This document shows, in pieces, positions 1,504-63,975 of a stretch of DNA of 64,000 bases (the first letter of the stretch is position 1; every line of letters starts with the position of its first letter). The stretch is taken from assembly GCF_013167455.1 (NCBI RefSeq), contig NZ_CP038328.1; one strand, given 5' to 3'. The notes below the pieces were generated by a model. The model saw only the letters and a program-made list of their open reading frames with translations, was not told where the DNA came from and ran no database searches. The translations under genes and the position numbers were made by a program. The stretch is from Escherichia coli O157:H7 (lineage in GTDB: Bacteria; Pseudomonadota; Gammaproteobacteria; Enterobacterales; Enterobacteriaceae).

Positions 1504-3450
1504 TTACTTTTTGATTTCATACAGCGGTGTTTGACCCGCCACAACATGGCCCTGAGCTTTAATGATCAAGCCACTGAAATCGTCGATATTGCTGCAAACC
1601 ACCGGGCTAATCATCGAACGGGCGTTAGCGTTCAGGTAATCCAGATCCATTTCCAGAATCGGTTGCCCTGCGCTTACCTGCGCGCCCTCTTCCACCAGAC
1701 GTTTAAAGCCTTTACCTTCCAGCGCTACGGTATCGATACCCATGTGAACGACAATCTCCGCGCCTTTTTCGGTTTCCAGGCAGAACGCGTGGTTGGTGTT
1801 GAAGATTTTCACGATTGTTCCTGCGGCTGGTGATACGACGATTTTATCTGTCGGTTTCACCGCCACACCGTCACCCACCGCTTTGCTGGCGAATGCTTCG
1901 TCAGGAACCTGATCCAGTGCCACGACATCACCGGTAATCGGCGATACCAGCTCCGCGATAGATACCGCGTTTGGTACAGCCTGCGGTTTTGCTACAGGAG
2001 CGGCAGTTGCCGGAGTTGCTTCAGCAGAGGCAGCTGCTACCGGGCCACGGGCAACGACTTTCTTCATCGCATCGCCGATGGATTCTGCTTTCGCGCCAAC
2101 AATCACCTGAATAGTCTGTTTGTTCAGTTTTACTACCCCAGAAGCCCCCAGACGTTTACACATCGTATCGTTAACGCGGGCAGAGTCAGCCACGGTAAGG
2201 CGCAGACGGGTGATACAGGCGTCAATTGCTTTCAGGTTGTCAGTGCCGCCAACCGCAGCAATATAGTTGGTCGCCAGTTGATTGAGGCCTTCTTCAGTGT
2301 TGCTGTTGGCTTCTTCAGTAACGATCTCGTCTTCTTTATCTTCACGACCCGGCGTTTTCAGGTTGAACATGCGGATAACCAAACTGAACACCACGAAGTA
2401 GATAGCGAAGAAGACAACACCCATAACCAGCAGCATCCAGACGTTCTGGCTGGCGGCCGGCAGGTTATACATCAACGCGTAGTCGATAGCCCCCGCAGAG
2501 AAAGAGAAGCCGGCATGGATACCCAGCAGCGTTGCCACAAACAGGCTGATACCGGTCAGCAGTGCGTGCAGGAGGTACAGCAGCGGAGCAAGGAACATGA
2601 ACAGGAATTCCAGCGGCTCAGTCACACCGGTCAGGAACGCAGTAACAGCAACAGAAAGCAGCATCCCGCCAACCATCGGACGACGCTCTTTCGGTGCTGC
2701 GAAGTACATCGCCAGCGCCGCACCCGGCAGGCCGAACATCATGATCGGGAAGAAGCCGGACATGAACATCCCCGCGGTGCCGTCACCAGCGTAGAAACGG
2801 TTGATGTCGCCGTGGAAAACCGTACCCGCCGCGTTGGTGAATTCACCAATCTGGAACCAGGCGATGGTGTTCAGCACCTGATGCAGACCGGTTGGGATCA
2901 ACAGACGGTTGATGAAACCAAAGATACCGGAACCCAGCGCGCCCGCAGAAACGATCCACTCGCCGCCTGCATGGATAGCGTGCTGTACCGGCGGCCAGAC
3001 GTAACCAAAAATGGCCGCCAGCACCAGACAGAAGAAGCCGGTGGCGATCGGCACAAAGCGTTTGCCGCCGAAGAAGCTCAGGAAGTCCGGCAGTTTAATA
3101 TCGGACCAACGGTTATAGGCTGCGCCACCAACCAGACCGGTAATGATACCCGCCAGTACACCCATGTTAATTTCTGGGTTGATGGTCACCATCGCTTTGG
3201 TTAACACAAAGTAACCTACCGCCCCCGCCAGCGCCGCCGCACCTGCGCTGTCTTTCGACCAGCTGGATGCCACACCGATGGCGAAGATTAATGCGAGGTT
3301 ATCAAAAATCGCACCGCCCGCCTGGGCAATAAACGCAACGTTAAGTAAATCTGGCTGACCGAATCGCAGCAACAGTGCCGCCACCGGCAGCACCGCGATA
3401 GGGAGCTGTAACGCCCTACCGAGTCGCTGGAAAAAACCTAAAATATTCAT
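1504..3450 (-). CDS. nagE: PTS N-acetylglucosamine-specific EIICBA component
   Basis: 648-aa ORF with multi-TM N-terminus and C-terminal EIIB/EIIA domains; divergent from nagBACD as in E. coli. Confidence 0.95.
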   Translation of the reverse strand: MNILGFFQRLGRALQLPIAVLPVAALLLRFGQPDLLNVAFIAQAGGAIFDNLALIFAIGVASSWSKDSAGAAALAGAVGYFVLTKAMVTINPEINMGVLAGIITGLVGGAAYNRWSDIKLPDFLSFFGGKRFVPIATGFFCLVLAAIFGYVWPPVQHAIHAGGEWIVSAGALGSGIFGFINRLLIPTGLHQVLNTIAWFQIGEFTNAAGTVFHGDINRFYAGDGTAGMFMSGFFPIMMFGLPGAALAMYFAAPKERRPMVGGMLLSVAVTAFLTGVTEPLEFLFMFLAPLLYLLHALLTGISLFVATLLGIHAGFSFSAGAIDYALMYNLPAASQNVWMLLVMGVVFFAIYFVVFSLVIRMFNLKTPGREDKEDEIVTEEANSNTEEGLNQLATNYIAAVGGTDNLKAIDACITRLRLTVADSARVNDTMCKRLGASGVVKLNKQTIQVIVGAKAESIGDAMKKVVARGPVAAASAEATPATAAPVAKPQAVPNAVSIAELVSPITGDVVALDQVPDEAFASKAVGDGVAVKPTDKIVVSPAAGTIVKIFNTNHAFCLETEKGAEIVVHMGIDTVALEGKGFKRLVEEGAQVSAGQPILEMDLDYLNANARSMISPVVCSNIDDFSGLIIKAQGHVVAGQTPLYEIKK

Positions 3451-3571
3451 CTTATTCCCCCTACGAGAACCCTATTTGGCTCGTTTAAAGCCGTATTTTT
3501 ATTGTGCTGCAAATTGTACTGCCGATGTTCTGTAATCAGATTGTTAGATCATCTGCCACAGAGTGTGTGAA

Positions 3572-3596
3572 AATTTAATTCGTATCGCAAATTAAA
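3572..3596. promoter_or_regulatory. NagC operator (nagE-proximal)
   Basis: Sequence aatttaattcgtatcgcaaattaaa matches the remembered NagC operator with its TTTAATT ... AATTAAA symmetry. Confidence 0.6.
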
Positions 3597-3604
3597 CGAG
3601 TGTC

Positions 3605-3626
3605 TTTTGTGAGTTTTGTCACCAAA
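3605..3626. promoter_or_regulatory. CRP binding site in the nagE-nagB divergent region
   Basis: tgtgagttttgtcacc fits TGTGA-N6-TCACA, lying between the two NagC operators. Confidence 0.55.
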
Positions 3627-3667
3627 TATCGTTATCATCACTCCCTTTTACTGGCTAAACCAGAAAA

Positions 3668-3691
3668 CTTATTTTATCATTCAAAAAATCA
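3668..3691. promoter_or_regulatory. NagC operator (nagB-proximal)
   Basis: cttattttatcattcaaaaaatca, an AT-rich NagC-type operator about 90 bp upstream of nagB. Confidence 0.5.
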
Positions 3692-3782
3692 GGTCGGATT
3701 GACGCCTGTCTGCGCAAATCCAGGTTACGCTTAAAGATGCCTAATCCGCCAACGGCTTACATTTTACTTATTGAGGTGAATA

Positions 3783-5791
<2,009 letters not shown>

Positions 5792-5799
5792 GAGAAAGT

Positions 5800-7020
5800 A
5801 TGACACCAGGCGGACAAGCTCAGATAGGTAATGTTGATCTCGTAAAACAGCTTAACAGCGCGGCGGTTTATCGCCTGATTGACCAGTACGGGCCAATCTC
5901 GCGGATTCAGATTGCCGAGCAAAGCCAGCTTGCCCCCGCCAGCGTAACCAAAATTACGCGTCAGCTTATCGAACGCGGGCTGATCAAAGAAGTTGATCAG
6001 CAGGCCTCCACCGGGGGCCGCCGCGCTATCTCTATCGTCACCGAAACCCGCAATTTCCACGCAATCGGCGTACGGCTTGGTCGTCACGACGCCACCATCA
6101 CCCTGTTTGATCTCAGCAGCAAAGTGCTGGCAGAAGAACATTACCCGCTGCCGGAACGTACCCAGCAGACGCTGGAACATGCCCTGCTGAATGCCATTGC
6201 TCAGTTTATTGATAGCTACCAGCGCAAACTGCGCGAGCTGATCGCCATTTCCGTTATCCTGCCAGGACTTGTTGACCCGGACAGCGGCAAAATTCATTAC
6301 ATGCCGCATATTCAGGTAGAAAACTGGGGGCTGGTAGAAGCACTGGAAGAGCGTTTTAAAGTGACCTGTTTCGTTGGTCACGATATCCGTAGTCTGGCGC
6401 TGGCGGAGCACTACTTCGGTGCAAGTCAGGATTGCGAAGACTCCATTCTGGTGCGTGTCCATCGCGGAACCGGGGCCGGGATTATCTCTAACGGGCGCAT
6501 TTTTATTGGCCGCAACGGCAACGTCGGTGAAATTGGCCATATTCAGGTCGAACCGCTGGGTGAACGCTGCCACTGCGGCAACTTTGGCTGCCTGGAAACT
6601 ATCGCTGCCAACGCCGCTATTGAACAACGGGTGTTGAATCTGTTAAAGCAGGGCTACCAGAGCCGCGTGCCGCTGGACGACTGCACCATCAAAACTATCT
6701 GCAAAGCCGCGAACAAAGGCGATAGCCTGGCCTCGGAAGTGATTGAGTATGTCGGTCGTCATCTGGGCAAAACCATCGCCATTGCTATCAACTTATTTAA
6801 TCCGCAAAAAATTGTTATTGCCGGTGAAATCACCGAAGCCGATAAAGTGCTGCTCCCTGCTATTGAAAGCTGCATTAATACTCAGGCGCTGAAGGCGTTT
6901 CGTACTAATCTGCCGGTGGTACGTTCTGAGCTAGACCACCGCTCGGCAATCGGTGCTTTTGCGCTGGTAAAACGCGCCATGCTCAACGGTATTTTGCTCC
7001 AGCATTTGCTGGAAAATTAA
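5800..7020 (+). CDS. nagC: ROK-family transcriptional regulator of the nag regulon
   Basis: 406-aa ORF with N-terminal HTH and ROK zinc motif (CHCGNFGC). Confidence 0.95.
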   Translation: MTPGGQAQIGNVDLVKQLNSAAVYRLIDQYGPISRIQIAEQSQLAPASVTKITRQLIERGLIKEVDQQASTGGRRAISIVTETRNFHAIGVRLGRHDATITLFDLSSKVLAEEHYPLPERTQQTLEHALLNAIAQFIDSYQRKLRELIAISVILPGLVDPDSGKIHYMPHIQVENWGLVEALEERFKVTCFVGHDIRSLALAEHYFGASQDCEDSILVRVHRGTGAGIISNGRIFIGRNGNVGEIGHIQVEPLGERCHCGNFGCLETIAANAAIEQRVLNLLKQGYQSRVPLDDCTIKTICKAANKGDSLASEVIEYVGRHLGKTIAIAINLFNPQKIVIAGEITEADKVLLPAIESCINTQALKAFRTNLPVVRSELDHRSAIGAFALVKRAMLNGILLQHLLEN

Positions 7021-7067: not shown

Positions 7068-7820
7068 ATGACCATTAAAAATGTAATTTGCGATATCGAC
7101 GGCGTGCTGATGCACGATAACGTCGCCGTACCGGGTGCAGCGGAATTTTTGCACGGGATTATGGATAAAGGCCTGCCGCTGGTGTTGCTGACCAACTATC
7201 CTTCGCAGACCGGGCAAGATCTGGCGAACCGCTTTGCCACTGCCGGTGTCGATGTACCTGACAGCGTGTTTTATACCTCTGCGATGGCGACCGCCGATTT
7301 CCTGCGTCGCCAGGAAGGCAAGAAAGCGTATGTTGTGGGCGAAGGCGCACTGATTCATGAACTGTACAAAGCCGGTTTCACTATTACCGATGTGAACCCT
7401 GATTTTGTGATTGTTGGCGAAACGCGTTCCTACAACTGGGACATGATGCATAAAGCGGCCTATTTCGTCGCTAACGGTGCACGCTTTATCGCCACCAACC
7501 CGGACACCCACGGGCGCGGTTTTTATCCGGCCTGTGGCGCGTTGTGTGCAGGGATTGAGAAAATCTCCGGGCGCAAACCGTTCTATGTTGGTAAGCCGAG
7601 TCCGTGGATTATCCGCGCGGCATTAAACAAAATGCAGGCACATTCGGAAGAAACGGTGATTGTCGGCGATAACCTGCGTACCGATATTCTGGCCGGCTTC
7701 CAGGCAGGTCTGGAGACGATTCTGGTGCTTTCTGGTGTTTCGTCGCTCGACGATATCGACAGTATGCCTTTCCGCCCCAGCTGGATTTACCCGTCAGTCG
7801 CTGAAATCGACGTTATCTGA
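7068..7820 (+). CDS. umpH: HAD-family UMP phosphatase
   Basis: 250-aa ORF with DxDG HAD motif (CDIDGVL); the nagD position in the nag operon. Confidence 0.9.
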   Translation: MTIKNVICDIDGVLMHDNVAVPGAAEFLHGIMDKGLPLVLLTNYPSQTGQDLANRFATAGVDVPDSVFYTSAMATADFLRRQEGKKAYVVGEGALIHELYKAGFTITDVNPDFVIVGETRSYNWDMMHKAAYFVANGARFIATNPDTHGRGFYPACGALCAGIEKISGRKPFYVGKPSPWIIRAALNKMQAHSEETVIVGDNLRTDILAGFQAGLETILVLSGVSSLDDIDSMPFRPSWIYPSVAEIDVI

Positions 7821-10120: not shown

Positions 10121-10197
10121 GGCTACGTAGCTCAGTTGGTTAGAGCACATCACTCATAATGATGGGGTCACAGGTTCGAATCCCGTCGTAGCCACCA
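10121..10197 (+). tRNA. metT: tRNA-Met (elongator, CAU)
   Basis: ggctacgtagctcagttggttagagcacatcactcataatgatgg...gccacca; cloverleaf with CAT anticodon and encoded CCA. Confidence 0.95.
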
Positions 10198-10207
10198 TCT
10201 TTTTTTT

Positions 10208-10292
10208 GCGGGAGTGGCGAAATTGGTAGACGCACCAGATTTAGGTTCTGGCGCCGCAAGGTGTGCGAGTTCAAGTCTCGCCTCCCGCACCA
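10208..10292 (+). tRNA. leuW: tRNA-Leu (long variable arm)
   Basis: gcgggagtggcgaaattggtag...cctcccgcacca, an 85-nt class II tRNA. Confidence 0.9.
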
Positions 10293-10315
10293 TTCACCAG
10301 AAAGCGTTGTACGGA

Positions 10316-10390
10316 TGGGGTATCGCCAAGCGGTAAGGCACCGGTTTTTGATACCGGCATTCCCTGGTTCGAATCCAGGTACCCCAGCCA
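10316..10390 (+). tRNA. glnU: tRNA-Gln (UUG)
   Basis: tggggtatcgccaagcggtaaggcaccggtttttgataccgg... with TTG anticodon and CCA end. Confidence 0.95.
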
Positions 10391-10424
10391 TCTTCTTTGA
10401 GTAAGCGGTTCACCGCCCGGTTAT

Positions 10425-10499
10425 TGGGGTATCGCCAAGCGGTAAGGCACCGGTTTTTGATACCGGCATTCCCTGGTTCGAATCCAGGTACCCCAGCCA
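10425..10499 (+). tRNA. glnW: tRNA-Gln (UUG), identical copy
   Basis: Identical to the 10316-10390 sequence. Confidence 0.95.
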
Positions 10500-10514
10500 T
10501 CGAAGAAACAATCT

Positions 10515-10591
10515 GGCTACGTAGCTCAGTTGGTTAGAGCACATCACTCATAATGATGGGGTCACAGGTTCGAATCCCGTCGTAGCCACCA
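10515..10591 (+). tRNA. metU: tRNA-Met (elongator, CAU), second copy
   Basis: Identical to the metT sequence. Confidence 0.95.
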
Positions 10592-10639
10592 AATTCTGAA
10601 TGTGTCGAATACGTTCGGCAAATTCAAAAACCAATTTGT

Positions 10640-10714
10640 TGGGGTATCGCCAAGCGGTAAGGCACCGGATTCTGATTCCGGCATTCCGAGGTTCGAATCC
10701 TCGTACCCCAGCCA
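10640..10714 (+). tRNA. glnV: tRNA-Gln (CUG), wild-type anticodon
   Basis: tggggtatcgccaagcggtaaggcaccggattctgattccgg...; anticodon CTG, not the CTA of supE. Confidence 0.95.
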
Positions 10715-10751
10715 ATTTATTCAAGACGCTTACCTTGTAAGTGCACCCAGT

Positions 10752-10826
10752 TGGGGTATCGCCAAGCGGTAAGGCACCGGATTCTGATTCCGGCATTCCG
10801 AGGTTCGAATCCTCGTACCCCAGCCA
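10752..10826 (+). tRNA. glnX: tRNA-Gln (CUG), second copy
   Basis: Identical to the 10640-10714 sequence. Confidence 0.95.
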
Positions 10827-53827: not shown

Positions 53828-54206
53828 TGTTTTCCTTGCGGGTTGTCCCGAGCCTCTTTGACGGATGTAATTAAAATGTTGAATCAAAATACATAGATAT
53901 TAATTATGATCGTGGCAAATTTTATTCATTAAATCAATTAAATCACTTAAACCTGCGAGTCATTTCGTAATTATATTAATTAAAAAACTTAAAACCATTA
54001 AATAAATAAAAAACCACTAACTCTATGTGAAATAAATCAAAATTTCACGCCGAAATACTCCTTAGGATGTATAGCGAAAGGAGAAAAAGATATACCTCGA
54101 TCACCCCCCTTTCTCCCAAGTGAAAATAAAAGGTTATCAGTTTGCAACATTGAACAACATTCGTTGCAAATCGATAACAACATGCACCTTCAGGATACTA
54201 TTTATT

Positions 54207-62736: not shown

Positions 62737-63975
62737 TCATATTGTTCCCCCCGGCATCGCATTCACCAGACCTGAAACCGCCTTCTGCGCCGCCTCTGCG
62801 CTTTGTGCACCGGGTACCAGAATCACCTTACGGCACTCCTCTTCACGCTTTTCAAAGATCTCATATCCCCGGGCGGCCTCTTCAAACGGCATATAGTGGG
62901 TAACAATTTCTTCTGGTTTCAGTAATCCTTTCTCAATTAACGGTAATAATTCTCCCAGCCATGCGTGAACGTGGGTCTGTCCCATTTTAAACGTCAACCC
63001 TTTATCAAAGGCGTCGCCAAACAGGAAACCGTGAATAAATCCAGCGTAGACGCCCGGTACGCTAACAATGCCGCCACGCCTGACCGCCGCAATACACTGA
63101 CGCAACGCTTTACCGCTGCTGCCCTCCAGTTTCAGGTTAGTCAGCACCGTTTCCGTGGTGCTGCCTTTCGCTTCAAAACCGACGGCGTCTATTACTGCAT
63201 CCACGCCCCGGTGACCTGCCGTTTGTTCAATAATTGACTGTGCCGGATCGCTATCTTCATCGAAATTAATCGGGATCGCGCCGTAGCGGTCAGCGGCGAA
63301 ACGCAAGCGGTAGGGATGATGATCAACAACAAAAATCTGTTCCGCACCGAGCAACCGTGCACAGGCGATTGTCAACAATCCCACAGGACCGGCACCATAG
63401 ACAGCAACGCTTGAACCTTGTTGGATCTGCGCATTTTTTGCTGCCTGCCATGCCGTTGGCAGAATATCAGAAAGGAAAAGGGCTTTATCATCTGAAAGCA
63501 AAGGCGGTACTTTAAACGGCCCCACATTCCCTTTAGGGACACGGACATACTCCGCCTGTCCACCAGGAACGCCACCATACAGGTGACTATAACCAAACAA
63601 TGCCGCGGGAGCTGGTATCTGTTTTTTATTGAGCGCAGCGCCTTTACCCGCATTGGTATTTTCGCAGGCGGCATATTGCTGCAGTCGACAGAAAAAACAG
63701 TCGCCACAAGCAATGACGAACGGAATTACCACCCGGTCGCCTTTTTGCAAATTTTTTACATCCTTTCCGGTTTCAACTACTTCCCCCATAAATTCATGAC
63801 CAAAAATATCGCCATGTTTAACCTGGGGTATTTTGCCTCGATAAAGATGGAGGTCAGAGCCACAGATCGCCGTTGCCGTTATACGCAGAATAATATCATC
63901 TGCCTGTTCAATGCCCGGATCGGGAACATTTTCTACCTGAACGTGATGTGGGCCGTGATAAGTCAATGCTTTCAT
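62737..63975 (-). CDS. ybdR: zinc-dependent alcohol dehydrogenase family oxidoreductase
   Basis: 412-aa ORF with MDR zinc-binding motifs ([15 protein letters not shown]) and GxGxxG. Confidence 0.9.

What the first reader, a model, noticed from the sequence alone, without database searches (positions are those of the whole stretch)
3572..3691. nagE-nagB divergent control region with two NagC operators around a CRP site
Two AT-rich NagC-type operators (3572-3596 and 3668-3691) flank a CRP site (3605-3626), the classic arrangement for NagC-mediated DNA looping. Its conservation supports the gene assignments and orientation.
Basis: established knowledge. Interest (0 to 1): 0.15.

Follow-up and report, generated by a model that had tools for sequence, protein, structure and literature searches.

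The report
nagE-nagB control region: NagC operators, CRP site
This is the textbook E. coli switch for amino-sugar genes: two binding sites for the NagC repressor either side of a CRP activator site between nagE and nagB. It is present, intact and already well characterised, so the finding is correct but ordinary.

Summary
The observation and the interpretation are both right. The window is E. coli, 100% identical to O157:H7-type genomes here. nagE (3450..1504, minus strand) diverges from nagBACD (from 3783).

- **NagC operators.** The two published 23-bp operators occur exactly: the nagE operator at 3574-3596 and the nagB operator at 3668-3690. Their centres are 94 bp apart, about 9 helical turns.
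- **CRP site.** A 22-bp site (TGTGA-N6-TCACC, 9 of 10 core matches) lies at 3605-3626.
- **Comparison with K-12.** All three sites are identical. The five intergenic differences fall outside them.
- **PWM test.** A NagC matrix built from eight other published sites ranks the two operators 1st and 3rd of 63,978 window positions.
- **Conservation.** In 57 of 59 genomes from Enterobacterales, Aeromonas and Vibrionaceae the two best NagC hits are 93-94 bp apart. In 55 of 59 the CRP core sits 30.5 bp from the nagE-side operator. Column information is 1.3-1.5 bits in the sites and 0.2-0.6 bits between them.

The likely mechanism is the published one. NagC bound to both operators loops the DNA and blocks both promoters. 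CRP activates both promoters and bends the loop. GlcNAc-6-phosphate releases NagC.

Novelty: already known. In passing, the nagE membrane (IIC) domain occurs as two very divergent, apparently exchanged forms.

The parts
1504..3450 (-). nagE, the GlcNAc-specific PTS transporter IIABC (648 aa), transcribed leftwards from the control region
   Evidence: NF007608 equivalog, 1449 bits against a cut-off of 1010. RefSeq annotation of a 100% identical genome agrees.
3562..3567 (-). Putative nagE -10 hexamer (CACACT on the minus strand). It implies a transcription start near 3554-3555.
   Evidence: Conserved AGTGT block in the 58-sequence alignment. The promoter assignment is inference from sequence and spacing; no start site was mapped here.
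3574..3596 (.). nagE-proximal NagC operator (23 bp, centre 3585). Low-affinity hybrid Mlc/NagC type with A/T at positions -11 and +11. It contains the putative nagE -35 (TTGCGA, reverse complement of 3585-3590).
   Evidence: Exact match to the published operator. Rank 1 of 63,978 with the leave-out matrix. Mean 1.50 bits per column across 58 genomes. A/T at positions -11 and +11 in 57 of 57 genomes. Hybrid nature is stated in PMC4288165.
3605..3626 (.). CRP (CAP) binding site, TTTTGTGAGTTTTGTCACCAAA, centre 3615.5. It lies 30.5 bp from the nagE operator centre and 63.5 bp from the nagB operator centre.
   Evidence: 9 of 10 core matches. Mean 1.35 bits per column, with TGTGA and TCAC nearly invariant across genera. 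nagB and nagE are listed as SELEX-confirmed CRP targets.
3652..3657 (+). Putative nagB -35 element (TGGCTA), a conserved block in the spacer
   Evidence: Conserved cTgGCta block of 0.9-1.6 bits per column. It sits 17 bp upstream of TATCAT. The assignment is inference.
3668..3690 (.). nagB-proximal NagC operator (23 bp, centre 3679). High-affinity type with C at -11 and at +11. It contains the putative nagB -10 (TATCAT, 3675-3680), with a start inferred near 3687.
   Evidence: Exact match to the published operator. Rank 3 of 63,978. Mean 1.31 bits per column. C or G at -11 in 56 of 57 genomes and at +11 in 50 of 57.
3783..4583 (+). nagB, glucosamine-6-phosphate deaminase, first gene of nagBACD
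   Evidence: NF001685 equivalog, 627 bits against a cut-off of 513; annotation.
4643..5791 (+). nagA, GlcNAc-6-phosphate deacetylase, which consumes the inducer
   Evidence: NF008371 equivalog, 745 bits against a cut-off of 483.
5800..7020 (+). nagC, the ROK-family repressor that binds the two operators, encoded in the operon it controls
   Evidence: NF047937 TransRegNagC equivalog, 719 bits against a cut-off of 650.
7068..7820 (+). nagD (umpH), a HAD-IIA phosphatase, last gene of the operon
   Evidence: NF007762 equivalog, 550 bits against a cut-off of 368; annotation.

Best explanation
The interval 3574-3690 is the known divergent nagE-nagBACD control region of E. coli.

- Repressed state: without amino sugar, NagC (encoded at 5800-7020) binds the strong nagB operator (3668-3690, over the nagB -10 and start) and, cooperatively, the weak nagE operator (3574-3596, over the nagE -35). 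The centres are 94 bp apart, about 9 helical turns, so both sites face the same side of the helix. The intervening DNA forms a small loop that shuts both promoters.
- Role of CRP: cAMP-CRP binds at 3605-3626 inside the loop. It activates both promoters from class-I-type distances, about -61.5 for nagE and -71.5 for nagB. Its DNA bend also favours the repression loop.
- Induction: GlcNAc-6-phosphate, made when NagE imports GlcNAc, releases NagC and induces both operons.

Shown here: site identities, their geometry, and deep conservation of both.
Taken from the literature: looping, cooperativity, inducer and CRP activation.
Inferred: promoter hexamers, start sites and therefore the CRP distances.
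For: - Locus: identical to E. coli O157-type genomes and present in 5,424 of 5,426 complete E. coli genomes.
- Genes: confirmed by NCBIfam equivalogs and by annotation.
- Operators: exact matches to the published 23-mers.
- K-12 comparison: the intergenic region differs at 5 positions (3487, 3504, 3557, 3599, 3636), none inside a site.
- Leave-out NagC matrix: ranks 1 and 3 of 63,978.
- CRP core: 9 of 10, and the only match of 8 or more in the intergenic region.
- Spacing across 59 genomes with a divergent nagE-nagB pair: operator spacing is 94 bp in 48 genomes and 93 bp in 9. The CRP offset is 30.5 bp in 55.
- Contrast with flanking distances: the distances from the operators to the start codons vary from 64 to 270 bp and from 93 to 185 bp.
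- Column information: 1.50, 1.35 and 1.31 bits in the three sites against 0.19-0.56 bits elsewhere. None of 199 circular shifts of the site mask reaches the observed contrast.
- Operator asymmetry is conserved: A/T at positions -11 and +11 on the nagE side, C/G on the nagB side. This matches the published weak/strong distinction and the dependence on looping.
- Literature: two-site looping at nagE-B. GlcNAc-6P as inducer. CRP target status. NagC footprint on the EDL933 nagB-nagE region.
Against: - Nothing contradicts the model.
- The nagB operator score and the CRP core match are not individually significant over 64 kb.
- The simple sigma-70 scan found neither inferred promoter. That is expected for CRP-dependent promoters with poor -35 elements.
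- The primary footprinting, looping and bending papers (Plumbridge and Kolb 1991, 1993, 1998; Plumbridge 2001) are not held in the library. The start sites, the -61.5 and -71.5 positions and the CRP co-repressor role therefore rest on recall plus those papers' titles.
- No curated CRP position weight matrix was available, so only a consensus-core test was run.
- PMC3105977 mentions multiple CRP sites in this spacer. I find only one good core.
Confidence: 0.95

Rival explanations
1. The nagE-proximal site (3574-3596) works mainly as an Mlc operator, so nagE would belong to the glucose/Mlc regulon rather than being looped by NagC.
For: The site has A/T at positions -11 and +11, the hallmark of Mlc sites, and this holds in 57 of 57 genomes. 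PMC4288165 calls it a hybrid Mlc/NagC site that NagC does not repress when it stands alone.
Against: The same paper states that, with the nagB operator present, the site is preferentially regulated by NagC through cooperative looping, and that there is no cross-regulation at physiological protein levels. The invariant 93-94 bp phasing with the nagB operator across genera is what a looped pair predicts, not an independent site.
Confidence: 0.04
2. The AT-rich blocks are only promoter elements (UP, -35, -10) of two divergent promoters. Their resemblance to NagC sites would then be incidental.
For: Both operators overlap the inferred promoter hexamers (TTGCGA in the nagE operator, TATCAT in the nagB operator). 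Promoter sequence is AT-rich and conserved.
Against: Conservation follows the palindromic operator pattern: TT at -6 and -5, AA at +5 and +6, both arms, and the positions -11 and +11. It does not follow a single hexamer. The sites match the published operators exactly. They top a matrix built from unrelated NagC targets. The invariant inter-site spacing is not required by independent promoters.
Confidence: 0.01
3. The three motif matches are chance occurrences in an AT-rich intergenic region.
For: Taken singly, the nagB operator score (0.58 expected per 64 kb) and the CRP core (4 found against 1.73 expected) are not significant.
Against: Joint placement within 117 bp, exact identity to characterised sites, and conservation of sequence and spacing across three orders of Gammaproteobacteria.
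Confidence: 0.002

Closest known systems
E. coli K-12 nagE-nagBACD regulatory region (NagC BoxE and BoxB plus CAP site; Plumbridge and Kolb)
   Same: Same locus and gene order. Both 23-bp operators and the 22-bp CRP site are identical in sequence and spacing.
   Different: Five single-base differences in the 332-bp intergenic region (3487, 3504, 3557, 3599, 3636), all outside the three sites. This is the O157:H7-type allele.
Other two-operator NagC loops (glmUS, chbBCARFG, fimB) and single-site targets (galP, LEE1)
   Same: The same repressor and the same 23-bp operator pattern. Cooperative two-site binding is needed for regulation.
   Different: Operator distances and the outcome differ. At glmU NagC activates, and galP and LEE1 have one site. 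In nagE-B the loop is very short (94 bp) and encloses a CRP site.
Mlc operators (ptsG, manX, malT, mlc)
   Same: Nearly indistinguishable logo, with invariant TT/AA at positions 5 and 6 on each side of the centre. The nagE operator shares the Mlc-type A/T at -11 and +11.
   Different: The nagB operator has the NagC-type C at -11 and +11. In vivo control of this region is by NagC.
Repression loops that enclose a CRP site or another bending protein (deoP2 CytR/CRP, gal GalR-HU loop, lac O1-O3 with CAP)
   Same: A repressor bound at two in-phase operators, with an architectural bend inside a short loop. This rests on established knowledge and was not tested here.
   Different: Different repressor families: ROK-family NagC here, LacI/GalR-family there. 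Here one CRP dimer serves two divergent promoters.

Membership tests
NagC operator (ROK-family NagC/Mlc 23-bp quasi-palindrome) | Invariant TT at -6 and -5 and AA at +5 and +6 around a centre of symmetry, with AT-rich arms | tested here: met
   Both sites have TT-N9-AA centred at 3585 and 3679. The rule is stated in PMC4288165. These columns carry 1.4-2.0 bits across 58 genomes.
NagC operator (ROK-family NagC/Mlc 23-bp quasi-palindrome) | Sequence identity to an experimentally defined NagC operator | tested here: met
   Exact matches to the nagB and nagE entries of FITBAR Table 1.
NagC operator (ROK-family NagC/Mlc 23-bp quasi-palindrome) | High score with a matrix built from independent NagC sites | tested here: met
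   Ranks 1 and 3 of 63,978 window positions with a matrix from 8 other sites. The nagB operator score alone is expected 0.58 times per 64 kb.
High-affinity NagC site (as opposed to Mlc site) | C or G at positions -11 and +11 | tested here: met
   nagB operator 3668-3690 has C at -11 and C at +11. This is conserved: C/G at -11 in 56 of 57 genomes and at +11 in 50 of 57.
High-affinity NagC site (as opposed to Mlc site) | C or G at positions -11 and +11 (nagE-proximal operator) | tested here: not met
   nagE operator 3574-3596 has T at -11 and A at +11, and A/T in 57 of 57 genomes. This matches its published status as a weak hybrid site that needs the nagB operator. It remains a NagC operator by the other criteria.
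CRP (CAP) binding site | 22-bp site with core TGTGA-N6-TCACA, with G at core position 4 and C at core position 13 | tested here: met
   TGTGAGTTTTGTCACC matches 9 of 10 core positions, with G4 and C13 present. The rule is stated in PMC3105977. TGTGA and TCAC are nearly invariant across genera.
CRP (CAP) binding site | Score above threshold with a curated CRP position weight matrix | not tested
Only the consensus-core test was run: 4 hits in the window against 1.73 expected.
CRP (CAP) binding site | Class I distance from the transcription start (-61.5, -71.5 and so on) | tested here: inconclusive
   The inferred hexamers (CACACT at 3567-3562, TATCAT at 3675-3680) would put the CRP centre at about -61.5 and -71.5. 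The start sites were not verified, and the promoter scan did not call these promoters.
Two-operator repression loop | Two operators separated by an integral number of helical turns, with spacing under constraint | tested here: met
   94 bp is 8.95-9.0 turns. The spacing is 93-94 bp in 57 of 59 genomes, while the distances to the coding regions vary about 2- to 4-fold.
Two-operator repression loop | Loop formation and its requirement for repression shown physically or genetically | not testable with these tools
   Rests on the literature: statements in PMC4288165 and PMC5401889 and the titles of Plumbridge and Kolb 1993 and 1998.
nag regulon locus | nagE divergent from nagB-nagA-nagC-nagD | tested here: met
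   All five proteins exceed their NCBIfam equivalog cut-offs, in the expected order and orientation.

The most novel reading that the evidence does not exclude
The module's geometry appears frozen over very long evolutionary distances. The operators are 93-94 bp apart, CRP sits 30.5 bp from the nagE operator, and the weak A/T-flanked and strong C/G-flanked operators keep their places. This holds across Enterobacterales, Aeromonas and several Vibrionaceae. It holds even where the adjacent nagE IIC domain has been swapped for a form only about 45% identical.

This would mean the NagC-CRP-NagC nucleoprotein loop is selected as a rigid unit. The control region and the IIA domain may also serve as the homologous arms for cassette-like exchange of the transporter domain. 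I found no statement of this depth of conservation, or of the cassette exchange, in the papers I could read. It may still be documented in comparative-genomics resources I could not access.
Probability: 0.3. Interest if true: 0.3.

Novelty: already known. Interest (0 to 1): 0.08.

Why it matters
For the scan, this locus is a positive control.

Biologically it adds nothing new to E. coli. The region has been dissected since 1991 and was footprinted in O157:H7 itself.

Two modest additions come from this check:
- The three-site geometry is essentially invariant across at least three orders of Gammaproteobacteria.
- The neighbouring nagE gene is a domain mosaic, which may merit a separate look.

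Tried and rejected
- Primary papers: I tried to read Plumbridge 2001 (PMC29661), El Qaidi and Plumbridge 2008 (PMC2446801), Plumbridge and Kolb 1998 (PMC147383), Plumbridge 1996 (PMC177988) and Raghavan and Groisman 2015 (PMC4403648). None is held. Start sites and CRP distances therefore could not be cited from text.
- Supplements: none are held for PMC4288165.
- Search for nagE, nagB and '61.5': nothing useful.
- Sigma-70 consensus scan of 3400-3830: it found only a weak hit at 3756-3784 and neither inferred nag promoter. It is uninformative for CRP-dependent promoters.
- Rfam scan of 3000-4200 at permissive threshold: one sub-threshold snoRNA hit, which is noise.
- Small ORFs in the spacer: all are 53 aa or shorter, with no support.
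- Second CRP site: PMC3105977 hints at one, but the only other match is 7 of 10 and coincides with the nagE operator. Rejected.
- Other NagC-matrix hits: 63788-63810 and 63827-63849 lie inside the ybdR coding sequence and are treated as chance. Hits around 53.9 kb were not followed up.
- The -11A/+11T wording in PMC4288165 does not literally match the T...A that I read on both strands. I take it to mean an A/T base pair at both positions.
- The T2 nagE segment of L003 found no megablast match in complete E. coli genomes.

Full report
**1. What is in the sequence**

The window around the finding has a 648-aa ORF on the minus strand (3450..1504). On the plus strand there are ORFs from 3783 onward.
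- NCBIfam equivalog models name them NagE, NagB, NagA, NagC and NagD, each above its curated cut-off.
- The 451 bases 3400-3850 are 100% identical to many O157:H7-type E. coli chromosomes. They occur in 5,424 of 5,426 complete E. coli genomes, where they are annotated nagE and nagB.
- The whole window is colinear with NZ_CP022689.1, running from glnS and nagE to ybdR.
- Against K-12 MG1655 the 332-bp intergenic region differs at five positions: 3487, 3504, 3557, 3599 and 3636.

**2. The three sites**

FITBAR Table 1 (PMC3098098) lists the NagC operators of E. coli.
- The nagB entry, CTTATTTTATCATTCAAAAAATC, occurs exactly at 3668-3690 on the plus strand.
- The nagE entry, TTTAATTTGCGATACGAATTAAA, occurs exactly at 3574-3596 on the minus strand.
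- The centres are at 3585 and 3679, so 94 bp apart. That is 8.95-9.0 helical turns.
- Between them lies TTTTGTGAGTTTTGTCACCAAA at 3605-3626. It matches TGTGA-N6-TCACA at 9 of 10 positions and keeps the critical G4 and C13.
- None of the five differences from K-12 touches a site.

Its operator coordinates carry 2 and 1 extra bases.

**3. More than chance?**

I built a symmetrised log-odds matrix from the eight published NagC sites other than nagB and nagE, to avoid circularity. I scanned all 63,978 positions.
- The nagE operator ranks 1st at 19.7 bits, with 0.02 such positions expected per 64 kb of first-order Markov sequence.
- The nagB operator ranks 3rd at 14.3 bits, with 0.58 expected.
- The second score is unremarkable alone. 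A site that good within 150 bp of the best site has a chance of about 0.003.
- The CRP core with at most one mismatch occurs 4 times in the window against 1.73 expected. That is also unremarkable alone. About 0.002 matches are expected in the 71 bp between the operators.
- The other high NagC-matrix hits, at 63788-63849, lie inside the ybdR coding sequence. I treat them as noise.

**4. Independent evidence from other genomes**

One scan of 100,044 species genomes with NagB returned 80 loci, from Escherichia to Vibrio, Aeromonas and Moritella.
- 59 loci have a divergent nagE-type PTS gene 250-500 bp upstream of nagB.
- In each intergenic region I took the two best NagC-matrix hits and the best CRP core, with no positional prior.
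- The operator spacing is 94 bp in 48 genomes and 93 bp in 9. The two exceptions are Bisgaardia and Moritella.
- The CRP centre lies 30.5 bp from the nagE-side operator centre in 55 of 59.
- By contrast, the distance from the nagB operator to the nagB ATG ranges from 64 to 270 bp. The distance from the nagE operator to the nagE start ranges from 93 to 185 bp.

An ungapped alignment of 58 sequences anchored on the CRP core gives these mean information values:

| Segment | Bits per column |
|---|---|
| nagE operator | 1.50 |
| CRP site | 1.35 |
| nagB operator | 1.31 |
| Flanks and spacers | 0.19-0.56 |

None of 199 circular shifts of the site mask reaches the observed contrast.

The asymmetry between the operators is also conserved.
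- The nagE-side operator has A/T at positions -11 and +11 in 57 of 57 genomes.
- The nagB-side operator has C/G at -11 in 56 of 57 and at +11 in 50 of 57.

**5. Two further conserved blocks**

- AGTGT(G/A) at 3562-3567 reads CACACT on the nagE strand. It is a plausible nagE -10.
- cTgGCta at 3651-3657 is a plausible nagB -35. It sits 17 bp upstream of TATCAT (3675-3680), which lies inside the nagB operator.
- The nagE -35 would be TTGCGA, the reverse complement of 3585-3590, inside the nagE operator.
- These assignments put the starts near 3554-3555 and near 3687, with CRP at about -61.5 and -71.5. That agrees with my recollection of the literature.
- They remain inference. The simple promoter scan did not call them, and I could not read the primary papers.

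**6. Mechanism**

The papers I could read state the following.
- NagC represses nagE-BACD, and GlcNAc-6-phosphate releases it.
- Regulation of nagE-B needs two sites and cooperative binding through DNA looping.
- The nagE operator is an unusual hybrid Mlc/NagC site with A/T at positions -11 and +11. NagC does not repress it on its own, and it relies on the strong nagB operator via loop formation.
- nagB and nagE are CRP targets confirmed by genomic SELEX.
- The nagB-nagE region of O157:H7 EDL933 gives clear NagC protection in DNase footprints.

Combined with the geometry above, the best explanation is the established one. NagC forms a 94-bp loop that occludes both promoters. One CRP dimer sits inside the loop, activates both divergent promoters and bends the DNA. 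The co-repressor role of the CRP bend rests on the title of Plumbridge and Kolb 1998 (cited) and on recall.

**7. Rivals**

- The nagE-side site could be mainly an Mlc operator. Its -11 and +11 bases suggest this. The published in vivo data and the conserved phasing with the nagB operator argue against it.
- The blocks could be only promoter elements. This fails because conservation follows the palindromic operator pattern, and because the inter-site spacing is fixed.
- The matches could be chance. The cross-genus data exclude this.

**8. Other checks**

- No Rfam family matches the region.
- No credible small ORF lies in the spacer.
- No second good CRP core is present.

**9. Verdict**

The feature is already known, so interest is low. 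It works as a positive control for the first-stage reader.

**10. Seen in passing: nagE is a domain mosaic**

- Relative to the window's NagE, the IIA domain and NagB diverge smoothly with phylogeny.
- The IIC domain is bimodal. One form is 82-99.5% identical. It occurs in Escherichia, Citrobacter, E. cloacae, Kluyvera, Superficieibacter, Cedecea sulfonylureivorans, Rahnella bruchi and Budvicia.
- The other form is 44-54% identical and occurs in 48 of 59 genomes. These include sister species such as E. asburiae and Cedecea neteri.
- In Rahnella, Budvicia and Cedecea sulfonylureivorans the E. coli-type IIC is more similar to E. coli than the flanking IIB domain or NagB (and, in Rahnella and Budvicia, than IIA). 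This suggests cassette-like lateral replacement.
- One assembly labelled E. coli (L003) carries the other IIC-IIB form joined to a 100% E. coli IIA domain and to nagBAC. That form has no counterpart in 5,426 complete E. coli genomes.
- Both forms pass the TIGR01998 NagE IIBC cut-off.
- The control module is conserved next to both forms.

Noticed in passing
window 1504-3450 (nagE); loci L002-L081, especially L003:166-2184, L007, L008, L019, L021, L031, L042: NagE is a domain mosaic across genera. The IIA domain and NagB diverge smoothly with phylogeny. The IIC domain (aa 1-370) comes in two forms: 82-99.5% or only 44-54% identical to the window's. The forms are patchily distributed: E. cloacae against E. 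asburiae, Cedecea sulfonylureivorans against C. neteri. In Rahnella bruchi, Budvicia and Cedecea sulfonylureivorans the E. coli-type IIC (82-91% identical) is closer to E. coli than the flanking IIB domain and NagB (in Rahnella and Budvicia also than IIA). This suggests cassette-like horizontal replacement inside the gene.
   Followed up: partly
L003 (NZ_JAATUR010000059.1, labelled E. coli SCPM-O-B-8794) 166-2500: This assembly joins the divergent IIC-IIB form of nagE (46-63% identity) to a 100% E. coli IIA domain, an E. coli-like right half of the control region, and nagBAC. Its nagB operator has one extra base (CATTCGAAAAAATC). The divergent segment has no megablast match in 5,426 complete E. 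coli genomes. It is either a rare recombinant or an assembly chimera.
   Followed up: partly
loci L043, L045, L047, L069 (Pectobacteriaceae); L051-L061 (Aeromonas); L062-L080 (Vibrionaceae): In these groups the nagE gene divergent from nagB encodes only IIC-IIB (about 484-522 aa) with no IIA domain. The NagC-CRP-NagC module keeps the same 93-94 bp and 30.5 bp geometry.
   Followed up: no
window 3694-3735 (nagB 5' leader): The blocks cGGATTGa (about 3696-3702) and CCAGGTTACGCTTA (3720-3733) recur downstream of the nagB operator in most Enterobacteriaceae rows of the alignment, but not beyond that family. They could be a second promoter, a leader element or simply shared ancestry.
   Followed up: no
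window 63788-63810 and 63827-63849: The second- and fourth-best NagC-matrix hits in the window (14.9 and 13.8 bits, 39 bp apart) lie inside the ybdR coding sequence. They are treated as chance matches.
   Followed up: partly
window 53916-54041: An AT-rich stretch has several moderate NagC-matrix hits (53920, 53966) and a CRP-core match with one mismatch at 54026-54041. This part of the window lies beyond the annotation fetched and was not examined.
   Followed up: no
window 24394-25845 and 29511-30488: In the identical O157-type genome NZ_CP022689.1, djlC and ybeQ are annotated as pseudogenes with internal stop codons.
   Followed up: no
window 10121-10826: A cluster of seven tRNA genes (Met, Leu, Gln, Gln, Met, Gln, Gln) lies between asnB and ubiF. 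This is the known metT-leuW-glnUW-metU-glnVX operon.
   Followed up: no
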